Program-made: the position numbers and the translations under genes
Notes under the pieces: model-generated
Told to the model about the DNA's origin: nothing
What the model saw: only the letters and a program-made list of their open reading frames with translations
Databases searched by the model: none
NCBI GenBank assembly: GCA_021846045.1
Contig: JAJZCM010000003.1
Coordinates: forward strand, 23,604-87,603
DNA from: a bacterium
GTDB lineage: Bacteria > Elusimicrobiota > Elusimicrobia > UBA1565 > UBA9628
DNA length: 64,000 bases
Direction: 5' to 3'
Shown here: in pieces, positions 37,027 to 62,802 of the stretch
Layout: every line of letters starts with the position of its first letter
Numbering within the stretch: the first letter of the stretch is position 1

Positions 37027-38165
37027 CGGAATCAAAAGTTCGCATTTTGATCGTCGATGACGACCCGCATATTCGCGAGTCTTTGTTTGACGTTCTTGAA
37101 GATGCCGGCTACGAGGTTTTTAAGGCATCCGGAGAAAAAGAGGCTTTGTCCGAGGTCCGAACGCATTCCTTTGACGTGATCCTGATGGATTATAACTTGC
37201 CGAACTCAACCGGAATCCAGGTCATCAAGAAAATCAGAAAAATCGATTTGAAAAGCCAGATATTGATGCTGACGGCGGATCGGACTCAAGAAACCGCGGT
37301 CATGGCCATTCAGGAATCCGTGGCGGATTTTTTGGTCAAGCCGGTCGACGTCGATCACCTCAAACACGCGATTTCAAACTCTCTGGAAAAATTGCGCCTG
37401 ATGCGGGAAAACGAGCGGATGTCTCTTGAATTGAAAAAAACCAACGAGAACTTGGAACATTTAGACCGGATGAAATCCAAGTTCCTTTCGATGTCTTCGC
37501 ATGATTTGTCGAACGCCTTGATGGCCCTTCAGGCCAGCTTCGAACTTCTTTCTCAAACAATCAATCCCTCCGAAGAACAGAAGAAAAGAATGACCGCGAT
37601 TTCTTCGAGCATTAGTCAGTTGACCCGCTTGACTGCCGATCTGGTCGATTGGGCTTCCATTGAAAACGGAAAATTCAGGATTGAGCGGGAAATGTGCAGG
37701 CCGGAGATCCTTTTGCAGGAAATTCTTCCGGGCTCTCAAGCGCGGGCGCAGGCGCGGGGGATTAAGTTCACGGAAAAAATAGAAAAGTCCTTGCCCGACA
37801 TCTACGCCGATAAAAGACGCATTTCCCAGGTTCTCAATAATTTGCTTGAAAATGCCATTCGCTATACTTCGAAGGGCGGGGAAATTTCAGTTTATGCGAT
37901 GCGGGCCTTAAATGAAAACTCAAAACCCGCCATTCGATTCGGAGTGAAGGACTCCGGAGATGGAATTTTGCCGACCGAACTCAATAAAATTTTTCAGAGC
38001 TTCTATCAAGGCCCGGATGCTTCGAAGGGTGGACGTCTCGGCTTGGGATTGGCCACCTCGAAAGAAATCATCGAAGCCCATGACGGGAAAATGGGCGTTG
38101 AAAGCGAGGGCATTGGCCACGGCGCGACCTTCTTTTTTACGATTCCAACCTCGAAAAATTCATGA
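37023..38165 (+). CDS. Hybrid response regulator receiver fused to histidine kinase (REC-HisKA-HATPase_c)
   Basis: Receiver ILIVDDD...DVILMDYNLPNSTG, then H-box MKSKFLSMSSHDLSNAL and ATPase G-boxes. The stop lies at the edge of the 66-bp repeat array. Confidence 0.8.
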   Translation: MTESKVRILIVDDDPHIRESLFDVLEDAGYEVFKASGEKEALSEVRTHSFDVILMDYNLPNSTGIQVIKKIRKIDLKSQILMLTADRTQETAVMAIQESVADFLVKPVDVDHLKHAISNSLEKLRLMRENERMSLELKKTNENLEHLDRMKSKFLSMSSHDLSNALMALQASFELLSQTINPSEEQKKRMTAISSSISQLTRLTADLVDWASIENGKFRIEREMCRPEILLQEILPGSQARAQARGIKFTEKIEKSLPDIYADKRRISQVLNNLLENAIRYTSKGGEISVYAMRALNENSKPAIRFGVKDSGDGILPTELNKIFQSFYQGPDASKGGRLGLGLATSKEIIEAHDGKMGVESEGIGHGATFFFTIPTSKNS

Positions 38166-38575
38166 CCGGCTGCGTTCCTTGCTCGCGAAGCGAGAGCGTG
38201 CCGAAACATCTTGAGAAAAGGCGTTATGATTCGGCCTGCGTTCCTTGCTCGCGAAGCGAGAGCGTGCCGAAACATCTTGAGAAAAGGCGTTATGATTCGG
38301 CCTGCGTTCCTTGCTCGCGGAGCGAGAGCGTGCCGAAACATCTTGAGAAAAGGCGTTATGATTCGGCCTGCGTTCCTTGCTCGCGAAGCGAGAGCGTGCC
38401 GAAACATCTTGAGAAAAGGCGTTATGATTCGGCCTGCGTTCCTTGCTCGCGGAGCGAGAGCGTGCCGAAACATCTTGAGAAAAGGCGTTATGATTCGGCC
38501 TGCGTTCCTTGCTCGCGGAGCGAGAGCGTGCCGAAACATCTTGAGAAAAGGCGTTATGATTCGGCCCGCCGAATA
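38158..38575 (+). repeat. Tandem array of about 6.3 copies of a 66-bp hairpin-containing unit (family 2)
   Basis: Unit ggcctgcgttccttgctcgcgaagcgagagcgtgccgaaacatcttgagaaaaggcgttatgattc is repeated at period 66 with at most 1 mismatch per unit. Each unit contains the stem-loop CTCGC-GAA-GCGAG. It is not CRISPR-like because there are no unique spacers. Confidence 0.9.
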
Positions 38576-40621
38576 GGATGGTTTGTCCTCCCTTTTTTCC
38601 TTGCTTCCTGCGCCACGGTCCAGGTCCCCATGTCGGTTACCTTTCCTCCGGCGGTTGATTTGTCTCCGTATCGGCGTTTTGCGTTCGGCGATATGAATGG
38701 AAACTCTGGGCGTCGTTTTCAGGACGCCTTGGCAACGGATTTGGCGCGTTCAAAAAAATTTAATTTCATCAATCGGGACCGGCTGAATGTGTTGGTCGCG
38801 GAATATGATTTGACGCAAACTCAAAATCCGACAAGCGCCAAGACCGGCCAAATCGCGATTGAAATTCATGATGCGGCGTTTATTTCTGGAACGATCAATA
38901 AAAATTACTATGAATTTGTGAGGGAGTCTCCAGATACCTGCCAGCGGAATAATCGCGCCCATCCGTGCCCTTTAAGAACGCGCGTGGGCCGGATTCGCAT
39001 TGGCGGACATTTGGATGTAATGGATGCGGCAACCGGACGATTGATCCATTCACAGACGATAGCCAAGGTGTGCCAAGCCCAAAGTCAAGCTAAAAATGCC
39101 TTTCCTGAAGCCATCAACCGAGCGCAGCTGGCTGAAAATTGCGTCAATTCCGCCGCCTATGATCTAGCGGCGCTTTTCTTGCCCTCCAGAAAAATGTTTT
39201 ATCCGGATTTTAAAAAAGTAGGAGATATCCCGGCTGTTGCCCAAGGAATCAAGGACGTGGAGGCCGGCAAAATAGGAGAAGCGGCCAAGGATTTTAGCGC
39301 GGCCCTTAAAGACCCGAAGGCGACGAGCCGGAATTTTAGTAAAAAATCCTTGTCAGAAATCTATTGGGACGGCGCGCTGGCCCAAGAATATTCCTGGCAG
39401 TTCGGCCCGGCCCTGGATTCCTTGAAAAAATCCTACGCGCTCAATCCCCTCGCGGAAACGCGAAAAGAGGAGTCGCAGCTTCTCGGCCTTGAATCCGCGC
39501 GGAGAAGGCTTTTGGGCGTTACTCCGCTCATGCTGGCGGTTGAGGGTGGAGCTTTCAACCAGGTTAAGGCGCTTCTTGAAAAAGGCGCGGACCCCAACGC
39601 TCAGGACGTTTCAGGCAACACCGCTCTAATGGGGGCGGCGCAAAAGCGGAATTTGCCCATGGTTCAAATTCTTCTTCGCTATGGGGCTTGGCCCAGCATC
39701 AGAAACAATCAGGGACTAAGCGCTCAAGACATGTCCCGGGATCAAAAAATTTCCAATTTGTTGAGCGAGAATTTTTCAAAACCATCCGCGCCGCGGCAAG
39801 AGGGGGCTTTGCCTTCTCCCAAGGCCGTGATTCATTCCGATGTGGATCAGGTTCCCTACCATTTTCCCGAAGACCCGTTTAAAATCGCCTTGGTCATCGG
39901 CATCGAGCATTATGAGAACAATCTCCCCTCGGCGGATTTCGCCGATCATGATGCCGAAGTCATGCGTGAACATTTAATGGCTTTAGGTTACGCTCCGCGC
40001 CACATTCATTGGCTCAAAGATCAGCAAGCGACTCGCGCCGCCTTGGTCAAGAATCTGGAAGGCTGGCTCCCACAAGTCGTTTCTTCCTCAGCGACCGTTT
40101 TTGTCTATTATTCCGGTCATGGGGCGGCGGACCCGGAAACTCATACAACCTATTTGGTTCCCGCAGATGGGGATTCCGGTTATCTTCAGGAAACGGCTTA
40201 TCCTCTCTCAAGGCTTTATTTGACTCTTGGAAAATTGCCCGCCAAACAAGTGATTGTCGCTTTGGACTCGTGTTTTTCCGGTAGGGGCGCGCGGTCTTTA
40301 TCTCCTGCGGGAGTGCGGCCTTTAGTCACTTTATCTCCGGTGGTTCCTTTAGTGGAAGGGGTGGTCGCGATGACGGCGGCTTCCGGGACTCAGATTGCGG
40401 AAGTTCTCAATTCCGAGGGACATGGCCTATTTACCTATTATTTTTTGAAAGGTCTTAACGGCCCGGCAAAAAACAAGTCGAATAAAATATCGGTGCAGTC
40501 GTTATACCGGTATTTGCGTCCGCAAGTCGAGGATGCGGCGGGAATGAAAAACCGCACGCAAACGCCCGAACTTTTACCCGGAAGCGTTGCCCATTCAAAT
40601 GCCATCGTTTTAGTTCCATGA
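38521..40621 (+). CDS. Lipoprotein with ankyrin repeats and C-terminal caspase-like (peptidase C14) domain; likely GTG start inside the last repeat unit
   Basis: Lipobox LPFFLASC after a basic n-region. Ankyrin repeats (TPLMLAVEGGAFNQVKALLEKGADPNAQDVSGNTALMGAA...). Caspase fold with catalytic dyad context YYSGHGA and ALDSCFSGRG. The ORF track version 38162..40621 reads through the repeat array. Confidence 0.7.
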
Positions 40622-55318: not shown

Positions 55319-56629
55319 ATGAGACTCACCATTCACCGCGGCGCTAAAGAAATTGGCGGGTCCTGCGTTGAGATCACGGCGGGCCGGACGCGGGTCATCG
55401 TGGACCTCGGGATGCCTTTGGTCTCGCCTTGGAACAAGAAGGAAAAACTCGAAACGCGCGGTTTTGCGAAAAAATCATCACAGGAACTGCTCGATATGGC
55501 CGTACTCCCGAAGGTCGCCGGACTTTATGCGATGGATGGGGGCGGGGCTGCGGTCGACGCCGTGCTTCTCTCTCATCCCCACCAGGATCATTACGGGCTT
55601 CTTGGACATATCCGGCCCGGAATTCCGGTGTATCTCAGTGACGGTTGTCGCCGCATCATCGAGGCCTCGGATATTTTTCTTCCCATCAAGGCGAATATCC
55701 GCAACCCCGTCGTGATTGATGACCGCAAGCCGGTGAAGATCGGCGACATCACGGTCACGCCCTACCTCATGGACCATTCCGGCTACGGCGCGCTGGCTTT
55801 CCTCATAGAAGGAGACGGCAAGAAGGTCTTTTATTCCGGCGATTTTCGCGCTCATGGACGTAAGGCAGCGCTCTTTCCGAAGTTTGTGCGCACAGCTCCG
55901 CAGGGCGTGGACTGCCTTCTCATGGAGGGAACGACCCTCGGGCGCGAGGGCCGCGCGCCGGAAACGGAGACCGATATCGAGGAAAAAATCGCCGGAATCG
56001 CCCGCCGATATAAAGGGATCAAGCTCGTCTACGCCTCGGGACAAAATATCGACCGCCTCGTTTCCTTCTACAAAGCAGCCAAGAGTATCGGTGGGGTCTT
56101 CGTCGTGGACCTCTACACAGCCTTCGTTCTCGACTCCTTGGGGAACAAGAATATCCCTCATCCCTGCGCGAGTTGCAGAAACTTGAGGGTACTCTATACC
56201 AAGAATTATGTGATAAAACTGGCGCAGGCGGGGCGCGAGGACGCCGTCAAGCGCTATCGCGGCTCGGAGATCACGCTGCGGGAGATCGCGAAGGCGGGGG
56301 AAAAGGCTTTCCTGATGTATCGGGAGTCCATCCGGCCCAAGATCGAAAAAATCGGGGACTTAAAGGACGCGGCCATGATCTATTCGATGTACGAAGGCTA
56401 TAAGCGGGAGGAGTCGTTCAAGAAGGTTCAGTCGTTTCTGGATGAGAACAAAATCATGCTTGAAACCGCGCACACGAGCGGCCACGCCTCTTTCGACGAC
56501 CTCAAACGCTTGGCCGCGGCGCTCAAGCCCAATGTCCTGACCCCGATTCATACCTTCAACCCCGAGCGCTATGCCGAGCTCTGGCCCAAGGTTCGTTCAC
56601 TCAACGACGGCGAGACCTTTGAGCCGTGA
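55319..56629 (+). CDS. MBL-fold metallo-hydrolase, beta-CASP-like nuclease/RNase family
   Basis: HPHQDHYG (HxHxDH) motif 2, later DHSGY and EGTTLGRE blocks, and C-terminal HTSGHAS. 436 aa. Confidence 0.65.
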   Translation: MRLTIHRGAKEIGGSCVEITAGRTRVIVDLGMPLVSPWNKKEKLETRGFAKKSSQELLDMAVLPKVAGLYAMDGGGAAVDAVLLSHPHQDHYGLLGHIRPGIPVYLSDGCRRIIEASDIFLPIKANIRNPVVIDDRKPVKIGDITVTPYLMDHSGYGALAFLIEGDGKKVFYSGDFRAHGRKAALFPKFVRTAPQGVDCLLMEGTTLGREGRAPETETDIEEKIAGIARRYKGIKLVYASGQNIDRLVSFYKAAKSIGGVFVVDLYTAFVLDSLGNKNIPHPCASCRNLRVLYTKNYVIKLAQAGREDAVKRYRGSEITLREIAKAGEKAFLMYRESIRPKIEKIGDLKDAAMIYSMYEGYKREESFKKVQSFLDENKIMLETAHTSGHASFDDLKRLAAALKPNVLTPIHTFNPERYAELWPKVRSLNDGETFEP

Positions 56630-56665
56630 GTTGGTGACGGGAGGTCAAGAAAAGATACGCCAGCC

Positions 56666-57067
56666 CTATACCTCACCCTTATTGATTCGCTCAGATGTCT
56701 TATATGCGTCAACCATCCCAAAAATCCAGAAGGAAATTATAGGTAAGACTCCGAAAATAAAGGGTATGAGAAGCACCGCAGTCAACGATCCCATGAATAT
56801 GCTTCCAATTCCCATAAACCCTGCCCATATCAAGAGGATCACGAAGACGAAGAAATATAAAAATCCTTTTATGAATTGCCCATTATAGATTTGGCCTAGA
56901 CCCACACAACAGAGCGAAAGAATGGCGGCAAGGCCGGAACTTTTCTTCGGGATATATTGTGGCTGGGGGCGCACCCCTTTCTCAAGGAACTCACCGCAGT
57001 GCTTGCATTTCTTTGCGTCCTTCAGTATCTCTTCGCTACAAAATGGGCACTTGGTTGTTTCTTCCAT
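56666..57067 (-). CDS. Zinc-ribbon (CPFC...CKHC) membrane protein, hypothetical
   Basis: N-terminal MEETTKCPFCSEEILKDAKKCKHCGEF followed by 3-4 TM helices. Embedded in an AT-rich segment. Confidence 0.45.
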   Translation of the reverse strand: MEETTKCPFCSEEILKDAKKCKHCGEFLEKGVRPQPQYIPKKSSGLAAILSLCCVGLGQIYNGQFIKGFLYFFVFVILLIWAGFMGIGSIFMGSLTAVLLIPFIFGVLPIISFWIFGMVDAYKTSERINKGEV

Positions 57068-57141
57068 TATTAGGATTGTAAAATAAAAAACTGGACTTAT
57101 CAAATGCAGTTTGACATTCGCGTATTGACTGTTCGTTAATT

Positions 57142-57870
57142 ATGTATATTGTGGACGTAACCATGCCAGTACAAGAGTCATCCAAAGATTGGGCGCGGCT
57201 CCGCAAATGTCCCTCAGAGGCCAGTATCCGTGAAATTTGCCGCCGGGTTGACGATGATTCCTGGGAAAATGCGAGTCCGAAACTTGAAAATAAAAAAGCG
57301 TTCGTTTCGGGAAGGTCTCCTAAAGATTCCAATGGGAGCGGGCCAGAGGCTCGTTTGGAGCGGCGATTGATCGAAGAGGTTCGTACGGTTGCGCTACCAA
57401 GGCAACGCAAAGGGATATCGACCATAACATTCGTGGCGTCGGCGTTCCCCGTTGGTGCAGGCAAGCGCGGACAGATAGATCTTCTAGGGGTTTCTGATAC
57501 AGGTGGCGTAATTGTTGTCGAACTTAAGGCCGTCTCAAATAATCCTTGGTGGGCAGTAGTTGAGGTGACTGAGTATCTTCTTCGTTTGCGCGCCAATTAT
57601 CCTCGCGTTAAGGCCTGGCTGGAGAATAAATGCAATGTGGCCGTCGGCACCCTGAAGTCTAGCCGAGGTTTGGCGGTATTGCCGCAAGGTTTATTTCGCG
57701 AGAAAGAGAAAGAATCTAATTTTGCAAAGGACTTGGTGAAGGCGCTTCGTAAGAAGGAGCTTAATATCGAGCTATATGAAATGGGCTATGAGGGGAGTGG
57801 GCGCTTGCCGCAATTTCACAAGCTAACGAAATGGATGTGTGTATTTGGTCGCAAAAACCCAAAACGTTAG
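57142..57870 (+). CDS. PD-(D/E)xK-fold nuclease-like protein (Hjc/NucS-like motif GQIDLLGVSDTGGVIVVELK)
   Basis: Motif IDLL...D..G...VVELK matches restriction-endonuclease-fold catalytic core spacing. No other recognised domains. Confidence 0.45.
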   Translation: MYIVDVTMPVQESSKDWARLRKCPSEASIREICRRVDDDSWENASPKLENKKAFVSGRSPKDSNGSGPEARLERRLIEEVRTVALPRQRKGISTITFVASAFPVGAGKRGQIDLLGVSDTGGVIVVELKAVSNNPWWAVVEVTEYLLRLRANYPRVKAWLENKCNVAVGTLKSSRGLAVLPQGLFREKEKESNFAKDLVKALRKKELNIELYEMGYEGSGRLPQFHKLTKWMCVFGRKNPKR

Positions 57871-58019
57871 TGGTAGCAATTTGCTGATCGATCCGAAGAA
57901 TGTCCATTTGTGCGCCCTTGCCACCTCCAATTATTACAAGGACTGGTATTTGTCACCAGTGACGGACACAATAAATAAGGACACTGTTCGATAAATTTCT
58001 GCGTATCCATCACGGGAAT

Positions 58020-58451
58020 GTGGACTGCCTGCTCATGGAGGGAACGACCCTCGGGCGCGAGGACGCCGTCAAGCGCTATCGCGGCTCGGAGATCACGCTG
58101 CGGGAGATCGCGAAGGCGGGGGAAAAGGCTTTCCTGATGTATCGGGAGTCCATCCGGCCCAAGATCGAAAAAATCGGGGACTTAAAGGACGCGGCCATGA
58201 TCTATTCGATGTATGAAGGCTATAAGCGGGAGGAGTCGTTCAAGAAGGTCCAGTCGTTTCTGGATGAGAAGAAAATCACGCTTGAAACTGCGCACACGAG
58301 CGGCCACGCCTCTTTTGACGACCTCAAACGCTTGGCCGCAGCGCTCAAGCCCAATGTCCTGACCCCGATTCATACCTTCAACCCCGAGCGCTATGCCGAG
58401 CTCTGGCCCAAGGTTCGTTCGCTCAACGACGGCGAGACCTTTGAGCCGTGA
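58020..58451 (+). pseudogene. Truncated, internally deleted duplicate of the 3' part of the MBL-fold gene (copy of 55910-56629)
   Basis: About 98% nucleotide identity to 55910-55950 plus 56238-56629. The missing 288 bp are bounded in the intact gene by the short direct repeat GGGCGCGAGG. Similarity continues about 25 nt past the stop. Confidence 0.8.
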
Positions 58452-58495
58452 GTCGGGGACGGGAGGTCGTGTGCCACGCTGGGACACCCGCGCTC

Positions 58496-60559
58496 CTATC
58501 GAATTCTGACTAAAGCAATTTTCCCCACCGGTTTCGGTTCCACCTGAGGGACCTGGTCGGCGTTGTTGTCGAGACTGGCGGCGGCCGGAACCTTTCGCTT
58601 GAGATATCGCGACAGGGATCCCACCGTCACATGGCCAGCCCTCTTTGCTCCTCCATCTATTCCCTTCAGAAAGTAGTAGGTGAAAAGCCCGTGACCAGTC
58701 TTCTCATCCGGCCCCGCCTCCTGGTCGGCTTTTGCGGCAGAAAAGGCGATCAGCTTCCCAGTCCGTGGAAAGCTCCCTTCCTTAACAACCGTGACAAGGG
58801 CGCGCACGCCCTTCCCTATGACGGAGCGTCCGGGCCTCCCGGAAAAGCAGGCGTCTAAAGCGATAAGGACCCGTTTCGCATGAAGACGGTTGAGATCATT
58901 GTAAAAGCTGGTTTCACGGTAGGCGGTGTCTCTTAGGTCGTTGGGATTTCCTCCGGATGGAACGAGGTAGGTGTGACCATGAGCCCCCGGAGCTCCATGA
59001 CCCGAGAAATAGACCCAGACGGTTGAGTCCGGCTTTGCGTTCCGCCCGAGCCAGCGTATCCCTCCCTTGATTCCACCCCGTGTGGCCGTGCCGTTTGTGA
59101 GACGTTTGATATGGTCGGGAGGAACCCCTAGGGCAATCAGTGTGCGATAGACTGCACGGGAGTCCCGATCGGCGAACTGGACGGACGGAAGACCCCCGGG
59201 GTATTTTTCCACGCCGATCACGAGGGCAAACATGTGGCGGTTCCTGGGGGCCTTGAAGGTCGGACGATCAACGGAGGAATGAAAGACGCGAGCCTTGGGC
59301 TTAGCCTTGCGTTTGCCAATCTTCCTCACCTGCCGCTCAAGATTGGACAGCGCCTCGATCACCTGTGGCGAGGCCTGAGAAGACTGCGCGGGTTGCGCCT
59401 GTTGCTCCGCGATGGCGTTTTTTATGAGGTTGGCAACTTTATAATGGTTTTCATCTTCAGCCCATGTAAGAGCGGTCCCGCCTTTTACATCTACGACATT
59501 GAGATCGGCCCCGCTGGCAATCAAGAGCTTGACGATATTGGCGTGACCATATGTCGCGGCCAATATAAGAGCGGTAGCACCGAATTGGTTATTTACGGCA
59601 TTGACATTGGCACCGGCGGCAATCAAGAGCTTGGCGATATCTGTATGGCCTTTTACAGCGGCATTCATGAGAGCGGTAGTACTGCCGTAGCCGTATTGGT
59701 TATTTGTGGCATTGACATTGGCACCGGCGGCAATCAAGAGCTTGGCGATATCGGCATGATCAGCAACCCCGGCACCTATAAGAGCGGTATTGCCAGATTC
59801 GTCCGCGGCATTGACATTGGCGCCGCTGGCGATCAAGAGCTTGGCGACATTGGCGTGACCATAGTACGCGGCATTCATGAGAGCGGTTCCGCCGTTTTTG
59901 GCTGTGGCATTGACATCCGCCCCATCAGCAATCAAGAGCTTGGCGATATCCGTATGGCCTTTTACCGCGGCATTCATGAGAGCGGTTATGCCGTCTTTGT
60001 CTGCGGCATTGACGTCGGCCCTGGCCTTGAGAAGAAGGGAGATTATGTTCGCATTACCATTCTTAGCCGCATTCATCAGCGCGGTGTTCCCAGCATTGCC
60101 CCTAGCATTGACATCGGCCCCAGCCTTGAGAAGAGTGGTGACCATGTCCGCATTACCATTCTCAGCTGCATTCATCAGCGCGGTGAACCCAATATCGTCC
60201 CTAGCATTGATGTCAGCCCCGGCCTTGATAAGAAGTGTGACCACGTTTGCATGACCAGTTGCAGCCGCAGCCATCAGCGCGGTGTTGTCATAAGGCTCGT
60301 CCACGGCATTGATGGAAGCCCCGGCCTTGAGAAGAGCAGCGACCACGTTCGCTTGACCATTCGAAGCCGCATATAGCAACGCGGTGAACCCAATATCATC
60401 CTTGGCATTGACGTCGGCCCCGGCTTTGATGGCTTTCTCAACACCACCAAGGTCTCCGTTTTGTGCCGCGGAAAAAAGAGCTGCAGACGCGCATCCCAAA
60501 ATGTTCAGGGCGCCCGCCAAAAACAAGATGATAAAGAACATTGAAAGACCTCTATTCAT
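58496..60559 (-). CDS. Secreted ankyrin-repeat protein with C-terminal caspase-like (peptidase C14) domain; paralogue of 38521..40621
   Basis: Signal peptide MNRGLSMFFIILFLAGALNILGCASA. At least 9 ankyrin repeats (GADVNAKDDIGFTALLYAA...). Caspase fold with YFSGHGA and ALDACFSGRPG dyad contexts. The ORF track start 60616 includes the conserved leader. Confidence 0.75.
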   Translation of the reverse strand: MNRGLSMFFIILFLAGALNILGCASAALFSAAQNGDLGGVEKAIKAGADVNAKDDIGFTALLYAASNGQANVVAALLKAGASINAVDEPYDNTALMAAAATGHANVVTLLIKAGADINARDDIGFTALMNAAENGNADMVTTLLKAGADVNARGNAGNTALMNAAKNGNANIISLLLKARADVNAADKDGITALMNAAVKGHTDIAKLLIADGADVNATAKNGGTALMNAAYYGHANVAKLLIASGANVNAADESGNTALIGAGVADHADIAKLLIAAGANVNATNNQYGYGSTTALMNAAVKGHTDIAKLLIAAGANVNAVNNQFGATALILAATYGHANIVKLLIASGADLNVVDVKGGTALTWAEDENHYKVANLIKNAIAEQQAQPAQSSQASPQVIEALSNLERQVRKIGKRKAKPKARVFHSSVDRPTFKAPRNRHMFALVIGVEKYPGGLPSVQFADRDSRAVYRTLIALGVPPDHIKRLTNGTATRGGIKGGIRWLGRNAKPDSTVWVYFSGHGAPGAHGHTYLVPSGGNPNDLRDTAYRETSFYNDLNRLHAKRVLIALDACFSGRPGRSVIGKGVRALVTVVKEGSFPRTGKLIAFSAAKADQEAGPDEKTGHGLFTYYFLKGIDGGAKRAGHVTVGSLSRYLKRKVPAAASLDNNADQVPQVEPKPVGKIALVRIR

Positions 60560-60616
60560 GGTTTCCTTTTGAAACATACTCTGGAGCCAACCATTTCCTC
60601 GCTTAAGCTCGGTCAT
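60557..60616 (-). promoter_or_regulatory. Conserved 5' leader (copy B), about 95% identical to 9244-9303
   Basis: ATGACCGAGCTTAAGCGAGGAAATGGTTGGCTCCAGAGTATGTTTCAAAAGGAAACC precedes the signal-peptide ATG. There are 3 mismatches to copy A. Confidence 0.5.
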
Positions 60617-60708
60617 GGTTTCCCTCCGTACGAACTCCCGCGTTCAGCCTGCCGCGATCTCGACACATGACCCGCCAATTTCTTTAGCACCGCGATGGAT
60701 GGTGATGT

Positions 60709-61467
60709 TCATGAACAACCAGCCCTCAGATTTTTTTTAACGACCTTGAATAACAGCTCTAGCTGATAGATGCTGACGTTCAATGTCTCTATGAGTTTTT
60801 TAAGCGCGGGACGCTTGTCCTTTTTAATTTCTTCTGCTTCGTCGAAGGCACGGCAGTTTCCAAACAAAAGAATTGACTTTTGAATTTCCTTTTTTTCGGC
60901 GCCGAAATCCTTTAGGAATTTTGTGTCGCATAACTGACGGGAATAGGTCTCAATTTCAAGGACTGCTCGCAACAGGGTGTCCTTGCTGTCATATTTGAAT
61001 TCAATAAGGTGAAGGGAGTCTTCCGTTTCCGAAACCAAATCAATTTTCCCCGCTTTGTCGGCCCGTTCATCGTTGAGCGGGACCTGATATTCGATAATCT
61101 GGCCCAATTCTCCCAAGCTCGCTTGATGGCAGAAGAGCATTTTGGCAAACGTAACTTCACCGCAGAGGCTTTTCTTCATGTCATCACCGCAAGGCACAGG
61201 TTTATGCCACTTATAAGTGCTTTTCCTTGTTATTTGCTTTATTTTCTCGAATCTTTGTTTGTTTTTCTCTAACTCTTTCGCCATTACTTCCGTGTAGTAC
61301 TCCTCGGTATCCTTCGTTTTCCCTTTCTGTTTAATAAATTCCTTATTATAGAGCCTCGAAAAATCCCCAACGTTGTTTAGGCGATATAGTGTCTCGGCGC
61401 GTGTGTATTCTTTAGACATAATCCCTCCTCGCAGCTTGTTTTGCTCCTGGCTACATTGGCGTCCCAC
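60709..61467 (-). CDS. Hypothetical protein with PD-(D/E)xK-like motif (GKIDLVSETEDSLHLIEFKYD); AT-rich gene
   Basis: 252 aa. GC content is visibly lower than in neighbouring genes. The start codon abuts the stop of the upstream AAA+ ATPase gene. Confidence 0.4.
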   Translation of the reverse strand: MGRQCSQEQNKLRGGIMSKEYTRAETLYRLNNVGDFSRLYNKEFIKQKGKTKDTEEYYTEVMAKELEKNKQRFEKIKQITRKSTYKWHKPVPCGDDMKKSLCGEVTFAKMLFCHQASLGELGQIIEYQVPLNDERADKAGKIDLVSETEDSLHLIEFKYDSKDTLLRAVLEIETYSRQLCDTKFLKDFGAEKKEIQKSILLFGNCRAFDEAEEIKKDKRPALKKLIETLNVSIYQLELLFKVVKKNLRAGCS

Positions 61468-62802
61468 TCATTCCAATTCGATCCCGTCGCCGGAGGCGTT
61501 TCTCGCGCCGTCGAGTCCCGGCGTCTCAAGCGCGCCATCGTTACCTGCGGGCGGCTCGGGGAGACTAAAACCGATTGGATCCCCTGCCCCACCCACGGAA
61601 GGCGGCGCGGTTTTATAGGTCTTAACCTGGGCCTTGATCTGCTTGCTTAAGATATCCACCGCCCTTGTTAAATCCCGATCCGCAATCTCCCTGTTCTCCC
61701 CTATCGCATAAGCCACCGCACTCGCGAGGATCTCCTGAACATAGGCCATTGAGAATCCTTCGGAGCGACGCGCGGCGTCCTTAAGAGCTTCGGGGCTGAA
61801 AGTCCCTTGAGCCTTGCGCTCTAGGAACTTCAACCTCAAGGCGTAATTGGGAAGCGGAAATGTCCAGACCCGGTCAAAGCGGCTTGGCCTGAGCAGGAGC
61901 GCCGGGTCCAGGCGTTCCGGCTCGTTGGTCGTCGCGATCACAAGGATTCCGCTCAGGCTGCTCAAGCCGTCGAGGAGATTGAGGATGCTGGATATCGAGA
62001 TGTTCTGGGAGAATTTATCTAAGTCCTCTAAGACCAGGATCGCAGGCGCCATGCTCCAGGCTGAGCGGAAGGCCATCTCGAGAAAGTCCTCTTCCCTCGC
62101 CCCGTTTTTCGGGGCATAAACGACGCAGGAGGCCTGCTTCATTGAGGCGATGCTTCGCACCGCCGAGGTTTTTCCGCATCCCGGGGGGCCGGCGAAGAGA
62201 AAGCCCCGGCGATAGGCGAGTCCAAACTGACGGTACATTTTCTTCGCCTTAAAAAAACTCTCGACGCTCATTTGGATTTCCTCACTCATGCCGGGCGGCA
62301 GGAAGAGTTCCTCCCACGACTGTTTCGGTTTCGGGAAGTCCGCTCCATTAACGACCTTGACCATGCCGCTTCTTTTCGCTCGAGCTATGGCAAAACGCCT
62401 AAGTTCTTCAAGGAAGCTCGTCACGGAGGTTCGTGACTTGGCGGCCACCAGGACCACCGAAAGAGTCGCCATCACATTGACCAGCAGCGTGACGCTCCGA
62501 CAATGAATGGGCTCGCCCTTCCACGCGAACCTGATTTCTCCGCGCCAATCCCAATCCTCATAGCGATCGCGCCGCCGCAGTTTCCCGTTGGGATCGACGA
62601 CGCGCTTGAGCCCTCTGACGATGTTTACTTCCGTCGCGGCCGATGGAGGCCGCAAGTCCAGGAAATCGGGGATGTCCGCTGTGTCGATGTTGTCGGACAT
62701 ATTGATTTCGAAGACATGCCATCCCTCTCCCGCCGGGTGCTCGGCGTGAAAACGCCTGCGTTCGTCGTTATAATATTGCGAGTCGCCCATTGTTTCTCTC
62801 AA
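61468..62802 (-). CDS. Classical AAA+ family ATPase with unique roughly 200 aa N-terminal domain
   Basis: Walker A FAGPPGCGKTSAVRSI, Walker B ILVLEDLDKF, sensor-1 VIATTNEP, Arg finger region LLRPSRFDR and a C-terminal lid. 444 aa. Confidence 0.75.
   Translation of the reverse strand: MRETMGDSQYYNDERRRFHAEHPAGEGWHVFEINMSDNIDTADIPDFLDLRPPSAATEVNIVRGLKRVVDPNGKLRRRDRYEDWDWRGEIRFAWKGEPIHCRSVTLLVNVMATLSVVLVAAKSRTSVTSFLEELRRFAIARAKRSGMVKVVNGADFPKPKQSWEELFLPPGMSEEIQMSVESFFKAKKMYRQFGLAYRRGFLFAGPPGCGKTSAVRSIASMKQASCVVYAPKNGAREEDFLEMAFRSAWSMAPAILVLEDLDKFSQNISISSILNLLDGLSSLSGILVIATTNEPERLDPALLLRPSRFDRVWTFPLPNYALRLKFLERKAQGTFSPEALKDAARRSEGFSMAYVQEILASAVAYAIGENREIADRDLTRAVDILSKQIKAQVKTYKTAPPSVGGAGDPIGFSLPEPPAGNDGALETPGLDGARNASGDGIELE

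What the first reader, a model, noticed from the sequence alone, without database searches (positions are those of the whole stretch)
60709..62802. Two-gene cassette: AAA+ ATPase with a novel N-terminal domain translationally coupled to an AT-rich PD-(D/E)xK-like protein
The AAA+ gene (61468..62802) has textbook Walker A and B, sensor and Arg-finger motifs, but a roughly 200-residue N-terminal domain I cannot place. Its stop abuts the start of a 252-aa ORF (60709..61467). That ORF's only recognisable feature is a restriction-endonuclease-like IDLV...EDSLHLIEFK motif.

The downstream gene is markedly AT-richer than its surroundings, which suggests separate horizontal origin. The pair sits beside the ankyrin-caspase gene, 3 kb from another nuclease-like ORF.

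ATPase plus nuclease or effector pairs are the common architecture of phage-defence and toxin systems. This pair does not resemble any family I can name from sequence alone.
Basis: inference. Interest (0 to 1): 0.7.

Follow-up and report, generated by a model that had tools for sequence, protein, structure and literature searches.

The report
Broken three-gene ATPase and nuclease operon
The two genes are real (a Bcs1/YjoB-type AAA+ ATPase and a restriction-enzyme-like nuclease), but they are not a conserved pair: the nuclease's usual partner is a second nuclease of the metallo-beta-lactamase fold, whose gene a rearrangement moved away here.

Summary
Both ORFs are real genes. The likely starts are ATG 62790 (440 aa) and ATG 61419 (236 aa), which leaves a 48-nt spacer with a GGAGG site, so the genes do not abut.

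The ATPase's "unplaceable" N-terminal domain has the YjoB/Bcs1 fold. Its Walker B reads ED, the signature of that branch, rather than the textbook DE.

The pair itself is not conserved. None of 80 metagenomic loci holding relatives of the small protein carries this ATPase family. Instead, 26 of the 35 loci with enough flank carry an RNase J-like MBL/beta-CASP nuclease next to the small gene.

In the window, a 22-codon remnant of such a gene overlaps the small gene's stop (ATGA). The intact MBL gene lies inverted 4 kb away, beyond a probably exported ankyrin-caspase.

The ATPase family sits beside WYL regulators in 8 of 14 contexts, PD-(D/E)xK nucleases of differing families in 6, and the same MBL family in 4.

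Best reading: a rearranged AAA+/nuclease/MBL-nuclease module, probably defence-related. No tool or paper I searched describes it.

The parts
61468..62790 (-). AAA+ ATPase gene, 440 aa from ATG 62790 (the mechanical ORF starts at TTG 62802). Residues ~1-155 form a YjoB/Bcs1-like N-terminal domain; residues ~160-390 form a classical-clade AAA module.
62167..62190 (-). Walker A motif, GPPGCGKT (residues 201-208).
   Evidence: Read directly. G201, G204, G206, K207 and T208 are invariant in 67 homologues.
62023..62028 (-). Walker B acidic pair E255-D256 (ILVLEDLD). This is the ED order, not DE.
   Evidence: Read. It aligns to the DE of Cdc48. E255 is invariant. The ED order is reported as a peculiarity of YjoB and Bcs1 in PMC9565160.
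61567..61572 (-). Invariant G407-F408 in the C-terminal tail. The family motif is [ILV]-G-F.
   Evidence: Invariant columns; alignment. Its function is unknown. Any likeness to the ClpX IGF loop is my own recollection and was not tested.
61420..61467 (-). 48-nt spacer between the ATPase stop (61468-61470) and the small gene's ATG. It holds the Shine-Dalgarno-like GAGGAGGG at 61423-61430.
   Evidence: Read. No terminator-like site was found on the minus strand in this spacer.
60709..61419 (-). PD-(D/E)xK nuclease gene, 236 aa. Catalytic residues: E88 (61156-61158), D127 (61039-61041), E140 (61000-61002), K142 (60994-60996).
60630..60712 (-). Remnant of the 5' end of an MBL-nuclease gene. It encodes MNITIHRGAKEIGGSCVEIAAG then a stop (ORF 60644-60712). 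Its ATG overlaps the small gene's TGA as ATGA. It is one arm of an inverted repeat; the other arm is 55319-55401.
   Evidence: Sequence. Inverted repeat of 83 nt, 81% complementary. 19 of 22 residues match the intact gene, with differences mostly synonymous. The same ATGA small-to-MBL overlap occurs in L096; gaps consistent with it occur in four loci.
58496..60616 (-). Ankyrin-repeat plus Peptidase_C14 (caspase) gene, lying between the small gene and the MBL gene. Its N-terminus has a hydrophobic stretch and a lipobox-like LNILGC. It is probably an unrelated exported protein.
   Evidence: Pfam. N-terminal sequence. No caspase homologue is found near any other small or MBL locus. A paralogue lies at 38162-40621 in the window. 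A homologous caspase does lie near the AAA+ relative in L174.
55319..56629 (+). Intact MBL-fold, RNase J-like beta-CASP-type nuclease gene (436 aa), inverted relative to the ATPase and small genes. It belongs to the family that is the conserved partner of the small protein's family.
   Evidence: Pfam Lactamase_B_2 and RMMBL. NCBIfam RNase J family beta-CASP model, E 1e-12, below its cut-off. PDB 2az4 (EF2904), E 8e-21. 37-40% identical over full length to the neighbours of small-protein relatives.

Best explanation
The cassette is what remains of a three-gene operon: a Bcs1/YjoB-type AAA+ ATPase, a PD-(D/E)xK endonuclease, and an RNase J-like MBL/beta-CASP nuclease.

Shown:
- The nuclease belongs to a large unnamed family whose conserved neighbour, on the same strand and often stop/start-overlapping, is this MBL nuclease family.
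- In the window, a 22-codon remnant of an MBL gene still overlaps the small gene's stop codon.
- The intact MBL gene lies 4 kb away in inverted orientation. The segment between is bounded by inverted copies of the MBL 5' end and contains an ankyrin-caspase gene.
- The ATPase family is independently linked to the same MBL family, to WYL/WCX (BrxR-like) regulators, and to PD-(D/E)xK nucleases of changing families.

Inferred:
- The functional core is a two-nuclease DNA-degrading effector. The PD-(D/E)xK enzyme would make the endonucleolytic cut and the beta-CASP enzyme would resect or degrade.
- This core is used in anti-phage or anti-plasmid defence.

Speculative:
- The ATPase has no conserved threading pore loop and has a chamber-forming N-terminal domain. 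It may therefore act as a nucleotide-dependent cage or gate that holds or releases a nuclease, rather than as an unfoldase.
- It is an optional third component, since most small+MBL pairs lack any ATPase.
For: Small-MBL linkage:
- 37 of 80 loci have the MBL directly adjacent on the same strand.
- 26 of 35 loci with at least 1.4 kb on both sides have it. After dereplication at 70% identity, 15 of 19 clusters do.
- The ATGA overlap seen in L096 recurs.

Remnant and inversion.

AAA-MBL linkage: the same MBL family (E 1e-105 to 1e-129 against my MBL profile) lies downstream of AAA+ relatives in L009, L173 and L175. The ATPase and MBL genes share GC3 of 0.70-0.72, against 0.51 for the small gene.

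A non-orthologous AAA also joins the trio: L096 reads DUF2779, 307 aa, AAA (555 aa), small, MBL, WYL. L113 reads WYL, small, AAA, 507 aa, DUF2779.

Defence flavour:
- Neighbours include McrBC, GmrSD, ThsB, ShosA, type I R-M plus SIR2_2, Schlafen/AlbA_2, and PADLOC candidate systems.
- The small domain is fused to SIR2 and to REase-ARP/PDDEXK_13.
- Neither family is found in IMG/VR viral contigs or PLSDB plasmids.

ATPase type: YjoB is the best single-domain match. The Walker B is ED. The NTD has the YjoB/Bcs1 fold. There is no conserved pore loop.
Against: - No experiment bears on this, and defence function rests on guilt by association.
- Some small-family genes sit alone among housekeeping genes, for example between dprA and topA.
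- The neighbour sample is 80 metagenomic loci, many of them related. The ATPase contexts number only 14.
- The ATPase family also appears with exported PEGA or caspase lipoproteins and with RadC/resolvase. Its role may therefore have nothing to do with nucleases.
- The MBL gene is now separated and inverted, so the trio may no longer work together in this organism.
- The beta-CASP assignment rests on sub-threshold HMM matches.
Confidence: 0.6

Rival explanations
1. One reading: a self-contained two-gene ATPase-plus-nuclease defence or toxin cassette, in which the AAA+ senses or regulates and the small nuclease is the effector.
For: - The adjacency holds in every contig of this species.
- The genes share a strand, with a 48-nt spacer and no terminator.
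- The AAA+ family neighbours other PD-(D/E)xK nucleases in 6 of 14 contexts.
- The small family neighbours a different AAA in 4 loci.
Against: - None of 80 small-family loci holds this AAA+ family.
- No other AAA+ locus holds the small family.
- The small gene's composition differs sharply from the ATPase's.
- An MBL gene remnant is coupled to the small gene's stop.
- In the loci with the other AAA where flanks are visible, MBL, DUF2779 and WYL genes are also present.
Confidence: 0.12
2. A WYL-regulated DNA-damage or DNA-repair module rather than immunity. The PD-(D/E)xK, beta-CASP (SNM1/Artemis-like) and Cas4-like DUF2779 nucleases would process damaged DNA ends, with the AAA+ as an assembly chaperone.
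For: - WYL/WCX regulators lie in 8 of 14 AAA+ contexts.
- UDG, an UvrD-PDDEXK_1 helicase-nuclease and a DNA polymerase III alpha gene lie nearby in some loci.
- DUF2779 is described as a Cas4-like exonuclease fusion in PMC13621843.
- From my own knowledge, some WYL regulators (PafBC, DriD) control damage responses.
Against: - Distribution is patchy and island-like.
- Composition is atypical for the host.
- Neighbours include McrBC, GmrSD, ThsB and SIR2, and the small domain is fused to SIR2.
- WCX-type WYL regulators (BrxR) are typical of defence loci (PMC9122589, listed).
- There is no WYL gene in the window.
Confidence: 0.15
3. A caspase-nuclease ('canu'-like) system. The ankyrin-caspase would proteolytically activate the adjacent MBL nuclease, with the ATPase and small nuclease as accessories.
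For: - The caspase gene abuts the MBL gene in all strains.
- Caspase or CHAT genes occur near AAA+ relatives in L174 and L257. The L174 caspase domain is 32% identical to the window's.
- MBL pro-nucleases activated by caspase or trypsin-like proteases are an established defence mechanism (PMC12799240).
Against: - The caspase has a signal-peptide/lipobox-like N-terminus, so it is probably outside the cytoplasm.
- The two genes are convergent, not co-oriented.
- The MBL here is RNase J/beta-CASP-like and matches no PADLOC model, whereas the published pro-nucleases are ComEC-like.
- None of the other small or MBL loci has a caspase.
- The genome has another paralogous caspase elsewhere.
Confidence: 0.06
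4. The ATPase and MBL genes are core genes of a mobile element that bracket a cargo slot. The small nuclease would be unrelated cargo, so the ATPase-small adjacency would have no functional meaning.
For: - The genes between the AAA+ and the MBL differ completely among the loci. The window has the small gene; L009 has 101 aa plus 149 aa; L173 has DUF2130 plus three unknowns; L175 has five genes including PDDEXK_13.
- RadC, DUF2958, resolvase and HTH genes lie nearby.
- The ATPase and MBL genes share a GC3 that differs from the small gene's.
Against: - The small-MBL pairing is conserved in many loci with no AAA+ at all, so MBL is not merely a flank.
- No integrase, tRNA or direct repeats lie at the window locus.
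- Neither family occurs in PLSDB or IMG/VR.
Confidence: 0.07

Closest known systems
Bacillus subtilis YjoB and mitochondrial Bcs1 (chambered classical-clade AAA+ chaperone and translocase)
   Same: - A single classical AAA module preceded by an alpha/beta N-terminal domain of about 150-190 residues.
- YjoB is the best single-domain PDB match (195 bits).
- The Walker B reads ED instead of DE.
- There is no canonical aromatic pore loop.
   Different: - NTD sequence identity is only about 10%.
- There is no transmembrane helix, unlike Bcs1.
- The family has an invariant C-terminal [ILV]GF motif.
- Its genomic company is WYL regulators and nucleases, not that of a stationary-phase chaperone.
- Its taxa (Nitrospirota, Elusimicrobiota and others) are not Bacillales.
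PD-(D/E)xK nucleases of defence systems: the Upx restriction domain, NucS, Cas4, HamA (Hachiman), SduA (Shedu), McrC
   Same: The core fold and the E...D...ExK catalytic constellation. The contexts are defence-island-like.
   Different: - No sequence-level membership in any named family: Pfam gives none, NCBIfam none, and PADLOC only a Cas4_II hit at E 3.7e-4.
- It has its own ~100-residue helical N-terminal part.
- No Cys column reaches even 90% conservation in the family alignment, so a Cas4-type four-cysteine Fe-S cluster is not conserved.
- Its partner is an MBL nuclease, not a helicase or McrB.
MBL-nuclease-containing defence modules: HamMAB, Avs and Lamassu trypsin-MBL pairs, canu CanABC (PMC12799240), and the type VII CRISPR Cas14 beta-CASP
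   Same: An MBL-fold nuclease encoded next to a PD-(D/E)xK protein or protease in defence-type loci. In HamMAB the MBL nuclease also partners a PD-(D/E)xK protein, HamA.
   Different: - The MBL here is RNase J/beta-CASP-like (436 aa). Its closest structure is the uncharacterised EF2904, 2az4. It is not ComEC-like.
- No fused trypsin protease and no helicase are present.
- No CRISPR components are present.
- I have no evidence of gating insertions.
IetAS ('Ietis'; anti-phage ATPase IetA/IteA plus an S8 protease)
   Same: The AAA module gives its best PADLOC hit to IetA, at E 2e-19.
   Different: - The score is no better than a generic AAA match (Pfam AAA E 3.5e-20).
- The NCBIfam IteA model scores 57 bits against a cut-off of 510.
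- There is no subtilisin-like partner.

Membership tests
Bcs1/YjoB-type classical AAA+ ATPases | Classical-clade AAA module with Walker A, sensor-1 and second-region-of-homology Arg fingers | tested here: met
   Pfam AAA E 3.5e-20. GPPGCGKT, N289, R301 and R304 are invariant. YjoB 7w42 scores 195 bits in one stretch, the best single-domain match.
Bcs1/YjoB-type classical AAA+ ATPases | Walker B with ED instead of DE | tested here: met
   ILVLEDLD, with E255 invariant and D/E at position 256. The feature is described for YjoB and Bcs1 in PMC9565160.
Bcs1/YjoB-type classical AAA+ ATPases | N-terminal domain with the Bcs1/YjoB fold | tested here: met
Bcs1/YjoB-type classical AAA+ ATPases | Ring oligomer enclosing an internal chamber; an N-terminal membrane anchor in Bcs1 | not testable with these tools
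   No multimer prediction was available. The N-terminus (MGDSQYYNDERRRFHAEHP...) has no hydrophobic helix, so the protein would be soluble like YjoB.
PD-(D/E)xK nuclease superfamily | Restriction-endonuclease-like alpha/beta core fold | tested here: met
PD-(D/E)xK nuclease superfamily | Catalytic E ... D ... (D/E)xK residues conserved | tested here: met
   E88, D127, E140 and K142 are invariant in 70 sequences that are 27-45% identical to the query.
PD-(D/E)xK nuclease superfamily | Metal-dependent nuclease activity | not testable with these tools
   This needs biochemistry.
Cas4 | RecB-like nuclease with four conserved cysteines binding an Fe-S cluster; association with cas1/cas2 | tested here: not met
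   The only hit is PADLOC Cas4_II at E 3.7e-4. No Cys column is invariant or nearly invariant. No cas genes were seen in any locus examined.
IetAS (Ietis) defence system | IetA-family ATPase above the family threshold, plus an adjacent S8 serine protease | tested here: not met
   NCBIfam IteA scores 57 bits against a cut-off of 510. There is no subtilisin-like gene in the locus.
Caspase-nuclease (canu) / protease-gated MBL pro-nuclease systems | Cytoplasmic caspase-family protease co-oriented with a ComEC-like MBL pro-nuclease that carries gating insertions | tested here: not met
   A caspase and an MBL gene are adjacent but convergent. The caspase has a signal/lipobox-like N-terminus. The MBL is RNase J/beta-CASP-like and has no PADLOC hit. 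Gating insertions were not examined. No caspase occurs at other loci of this MBL family.
Beta-CASP (RNase J / CPSF73 / SNM1) MBL nucleases (for the partner gene 55319-56629) | MBL domain with the beta-CASP insertion and the C-terminal RMMBL motif | tested here: inconclusive
   Lactamase_B_2 E 1e-16 and RMMBL E 0.002. The RNase J family model TIGR00649 covers residues 8-411 at E 1e-12 but scores 47 bits against a cut-off of 400. RNase J structures match at E 2e-6.
BrxR/WYL-regulated defence loci | wHTH-WYL-WCX regulator encoded next to the system | tested here: not met
   The window has no WYL homologue (searched all window ORFs). One is present in 8 of 14 contexts of AAA+ relatives, and in L096 and L113.

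The most novel reading that the evidence does not exclude
The small PD-(D/E)xK nuclease and the RNase J-like MBL nuclease form a widespread two-nuclease immune module that nobody has yet described. The small family alone has about 1,300 clusters at 50% identity. In some lineages the module has recruited a chambered Bcs1/YjoB-type AAA+ that cages or gates a folded nuclease instead of unfolding substrates. That would be a new way of controlling a toxic effector.
Probability: 0.25. Interest if true: 0.7.

Novelty: new variant of a known kind. Interest (0 to 1): 0.45.

Why it matters
If the small+MBL pair is a defence module, it adds a large unnamed protein family and a beta-CASP nuclease to the immune repertoire. 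In the literature I could search, beta-CASP enzymes appear in defence only as type VII CRISPR Cas14.

The ATPase would extend the Bcs1/YjoB chaperone-type architecture to loci regulated by WYL proteins and rich in nucleases. That suggests control of effectors by sequestration rather than by unfolding.

For genome annotation the lesson is practical. Adjacency in one genome was misleading; the true partner was revealed only by a 22-codon gene remnant together with comparative context.

Tried and rejected
- PLSDB plasmid search with both proteins. The small protein had no match, and the ATPase matched only generic AAA proteins such as FtsH and Cdc48.
- IMG/VR viral contigs. No relative of the small protein and no full-length ATPase relative were found. 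A phage origin was therefore rejected.
- GTDB genome scan with the ATPase alignment. The patterns picked up mostly generic AAA genes, and only about 6 loci were true family members.
- The search for related loci with the 70-sequence alignment failed for lack of a conserved stretch. It was repeated with 18 sequences.
- A profile search of the PDB with the small family gave nothing.
- Foldseek against the PDB gave nothing significant.
- The afdb50 library was unavailable.
- PHROGs gave nothing for the small protein.
- I tested whether short ORFs downstream of ATPase relatives resemble the small protein or each other. Only L008 and L174 share their downstream ORFs, and none resembles the small family.
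- Profile comparison of the other AAA (L096) with this family showed only the ATPase core is shared.
- Literature searches for an MBL plus PD-(D/E)xK pair, DUF2779, Bcs1-like defence ATPases and beta-CASP in anti-phage defence found no description of this module.
- No tRNA or known RNA family lies near the locus.
Full report
**1. What is in the sequence**

Both are real genes.

- Each has a 100% match in public protein collections and many homologues.
- The same locus, at 99.9% identity, occurs in two NCBI metagenome-assembled genomes, GCA_027406795.1 and GCA_027401925.1, and in ENA contigs. There the genes are called as 440 aa and 236 aa.
- The likely starts are therefore ATG 62790 and ATG 61419. 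The second is preceded by GAGGAGGG at 61423-61430, and homologues begin at the same residue.
- The "abutting" GTG at 61467 is a mechanical ORF start. The real spacer is 48 nt with no terminator-like hairpin. Co-transcription is plausible, but stop/start coupling is not shown.

The AT-richness of the small gene is real. Its GC is 0.423, against 0.579 for the ATPase, 0.571 for the MBL gene discussed below and 0.508 for the window. That places it in the lowest 0.3% of 711-nt windows.

**2. The small protein**

It matches no Pfam, NCBIfam or PHROGs family. PADLOC gives only a weak Cas4_II hit.

An alignment of 70 homologues, 27-45% identical to the query, has nine invariant positions. They include E88, D127, E140 and K142, which form the E...D...ExK constellation of PD-(D/E)xK nucleases.

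- AF1548, Can2, Shedu SduA, McrC, Cas4 and Hachiman HamA, at lower Z

Foldseek and a sequence profile against the PDB were uninformative.

An exhaustive profile search finds 1,283 clusters (at 50% identity) with E<=1e-10. This is a large unnamed family. Some members are fused to SIR2, to REase-ARP/PDDEXK_13 or to HEAT repeats.

**3. The ATPase**

The AAA module is classical-clade. Walker A, sensor-1 N289 and Arg fingers R301/R304 are invariant across 67 homologues.

Two details depart from "textbook":

- Walker B reads ILVLEDLD, with the acidic pair in ED rather than DE order.
- The segment that normally holds the aromatic pore loop 1 is shortened and not conserved.

The YjoB structure paper states that the ED order is an exceptional feature shared by YjoB and Bcs1 (PMC9565160). 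YjoB is also the best single-domain PDB match by sequence, at 195 bits.

So the "unplaceable" domain is a divergent Bcs1/YjoB-type domain. It is conserved over its full length in hundreds of proteins from Nitrospirota, Elusimicrobiota, Desulfobacterota and other phyla. The family also has an invariant C-terminal [ILV]-G-F motif.

**4. Is the pair conserved?**

No.

I fetched 80 metagenomic loci around relatives of the small protein. None contains a member of this ATPase family.

The dominant neighbour is instead a protein of 400-450 aa, on the same strand and directly adjacent in 37 loci. It is 37-40% identical over its full length to the window's MBL-fold gene at 55319..56629.

- Among loci with at least 1.4 kb on both sides, 26 of 35 have it.
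- After dereplication at 70% identity, 15 of 19 clusters have it.
- When the order is small then MBL, the genes often overlap by 4 nt.

The MBL protein is RNase J-like (beta-CASP type). It matches Lactamase_B_2 and RMMBL, and TIGR00649 at E 1e-12, which is below that model's cut-off. Its closest solved relative is the uncharacterised EF2904, 2az4.

**5. The remnant in the window**

Immediately at the small gene's stop, an ATG overlaps the TGA (ATGA). It opens a 22-codon ORF, MNITIHRGAKEIGGSCVEIAAG followed by a stop. That is the N-terminus of the MBL protein, MRLTIHRGAKEIGGSCVEITAG....

Positions 60630-60712 and 55319-55401 form an 83-nt inverted repeat that is 81% complementary. The repeat brackets the intact MBL gene and the ankyrin-caspase gene.

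Seven of the eleven codon differences are synonymous. This hints that the two copies diverged while both were functional. The sample is small, so this is only an inference.

The simplest reading is that an MBL gene was once translationally coupled to the small gene. A rearrangement shared by all strains then left only its first 22 codons there.

**6. What the ATPase family keeps company with**

I could examine fourteen independent contexts.

| Neighbour | Contexts out of 14 |
|---|---|
| wHTH-WYL-WCX (BrxR-like) regulator | 8 |
| PD-(D/E)xK nuclease, a different family each time (the small family, PDDEXK_1 twice, PDDEXK_4, Mrr_cat, PDDEXK_13/REase-ARP) | 6 |
| The same MBL family (E 1e-105 to 1e-129 against my profile) | 4 |
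| Caspase or CHAT protease | 3 |

PEGA-domain or lipoprotein genes, RadC and resolvase also occur in some contexts.

The genes between the ATPase and the MBL differ completely from locus to locus.

Conversely, four small-family loci carry a different AAA ATPase, 555 aa with only the ATPase core shared.

- L096 reads DUF2779, 307 aa, AAA, small, MBL, WYL.
- L113 reads WYL, small, AAA, 507 aa, DUF2779.

DUF2779 has been described as a Cas4-like exonuclease fusion (PMC13621843).

So the recurring gene set is a WYL regulator, an AAA ATPase from either of two families, the small nuclease, the MBL nuclease and DUF2779. The window holds a reduced and rearranged version of it.

**7. Function**

Other neighbours of small-family genes include McrBC, GmrSD, ThsB, ShosA, a type I R-M operon with SIR2_2, Schlafen/AlbA_2, an ADP-ribosylglycohydrolase and several PADLOC candidate systems. 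Housekeeping genes also occur.

Neither family is found in IMG/VR viral contigs or PLSDB plasmids.

Together with the SIR2 and restriction-enzyme fusions, this favours a cellular defence role. I propose the following:

- The core is a two-nuclease DNA-degrading effector. This is inference.
- The ATPase acts as a nucleotide-dependent holder or gate rather than an unfoldase. This is speculation. It rests on the ATPase's similarity to chamber-forming YjoB and Bcs1 and its lack of a threading pore loop.

A WYL-controlled DNA-repair role is the main alternative.

A canu-like caspase-activated MBL nuclease (PMC12799240) is unlikely here, for four reasons:

- The caspase has a signal/lipobox-like N-terminus.
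- The caspase and MBL genes are convergent.
- The MBL is not ComEC-like and has no PADLOC hit.
- No other small or MBL locus has a caspase.

**8. Comparison and novelty**

All three proteins belong to known kinds. The ATPase is a new member of the Bcs1/YjoB-type branch. The nuclease is a new PD-(D/E)xK family.

No library I could query names the small+MBL pairing or its facultative AAA partner. The libraries were Pfam 2025, NCBIfam 2026 and PADLOC-DB 2.0. The searchable literature does not describe it either.

I could not run current DefenseFinder models, so prior description cannot be excluded.

**9. Verdict**

- Observation: partly confirmed.
- Interpretation: partly supported. The nuclease assignment and the defence-like flavour hold. 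The idea of a two-gene cassette, the translational coupling and the novel N-terminal domain do not.
- Interest is moderate. This is a candidate undescribed nuclease module with an unusual chaperone-type ATPase, seen here in a broken state.

Noticed in passing
window 56647-58052, with the duplicated flanks 56231-56646 and 58053-58468: Compared with GCA_027406795.1 and GCA_027401925.1 (otherwise 99.9% identical), the window carries an extra 1.4 kb. The extra piece is flanked by a 416-nt direct duplication (98% identical) of the MBL gene's 3' end. It also contains a 43-nt copy of 55907-55949 at 58020-58062. It could be a real strain variant or an assembly artefact.
   Followed up: partly
window 55319-55401 and 60630-60712: An 83-nt inverted repeat, 81% complementary, made of two copies of the MBL gene's 5' end. 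It brackets the MBL and ankyrin-caspase genes. Differences between the copies are mostly synonymous (7 synonymous, 3 replacement, 1 stop).
   Followed up: yes
window 38162-40621 (+): A second caspase-domain (Peptidase_C14-like) ORF, 43% identical over 262 residues to the caspase domain of the ankyrin-caspase. The organism therefore has several such proteases.
   Followed up: no
window 61567-61572 (-), residues G407-F408 of the ATPase: An invariant [ILV]-G-F tripeptide sits in the otherwise variable C-terminal tail across 67 homologues. It could be a docking motif for a partner protein. The same family has no conserved pore-loop-1 aromatic residue.
   Followed up: partly
window 59426-60430: The ankyrin repeats show a 99-nt periodicity at the DNA level, with copies 60-83% identical. 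This is ordinary for ankyrin arrays but visible as tandem DNA repeats.
   Followed up: no
L174 1-1530; L257 3870-5969 and 8981-11185; L008 1921-4068: Relatives of the ATPase also sit near large caspase, CHAT or PEGA-domain proteins and small lipoproteins with signal peptides, plus GYF_2-domain proteins. This second, envelope-flavoured context is one I cannot reconcile with the nuclease/WYL context.
   Followed up: partly
P0262, P0266, P0307, P0261 (proteins): The small nuclease domain occurs fused to SIR2, to REase-ARP/PDDEXK_13 nucleases, and to HEAT repeats.
   Followed up: partly
window 55319-56629 and 61468-62790 versus 60709-61419: The ATPase and MBL genes share a high GC3 (0.70 and 0.72), well above the small gene's (0.51). 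Both also exceed the window's overall GC of 0.508. This suggests the two arrived together and the small gene has a separate history.
   Followed up: partly
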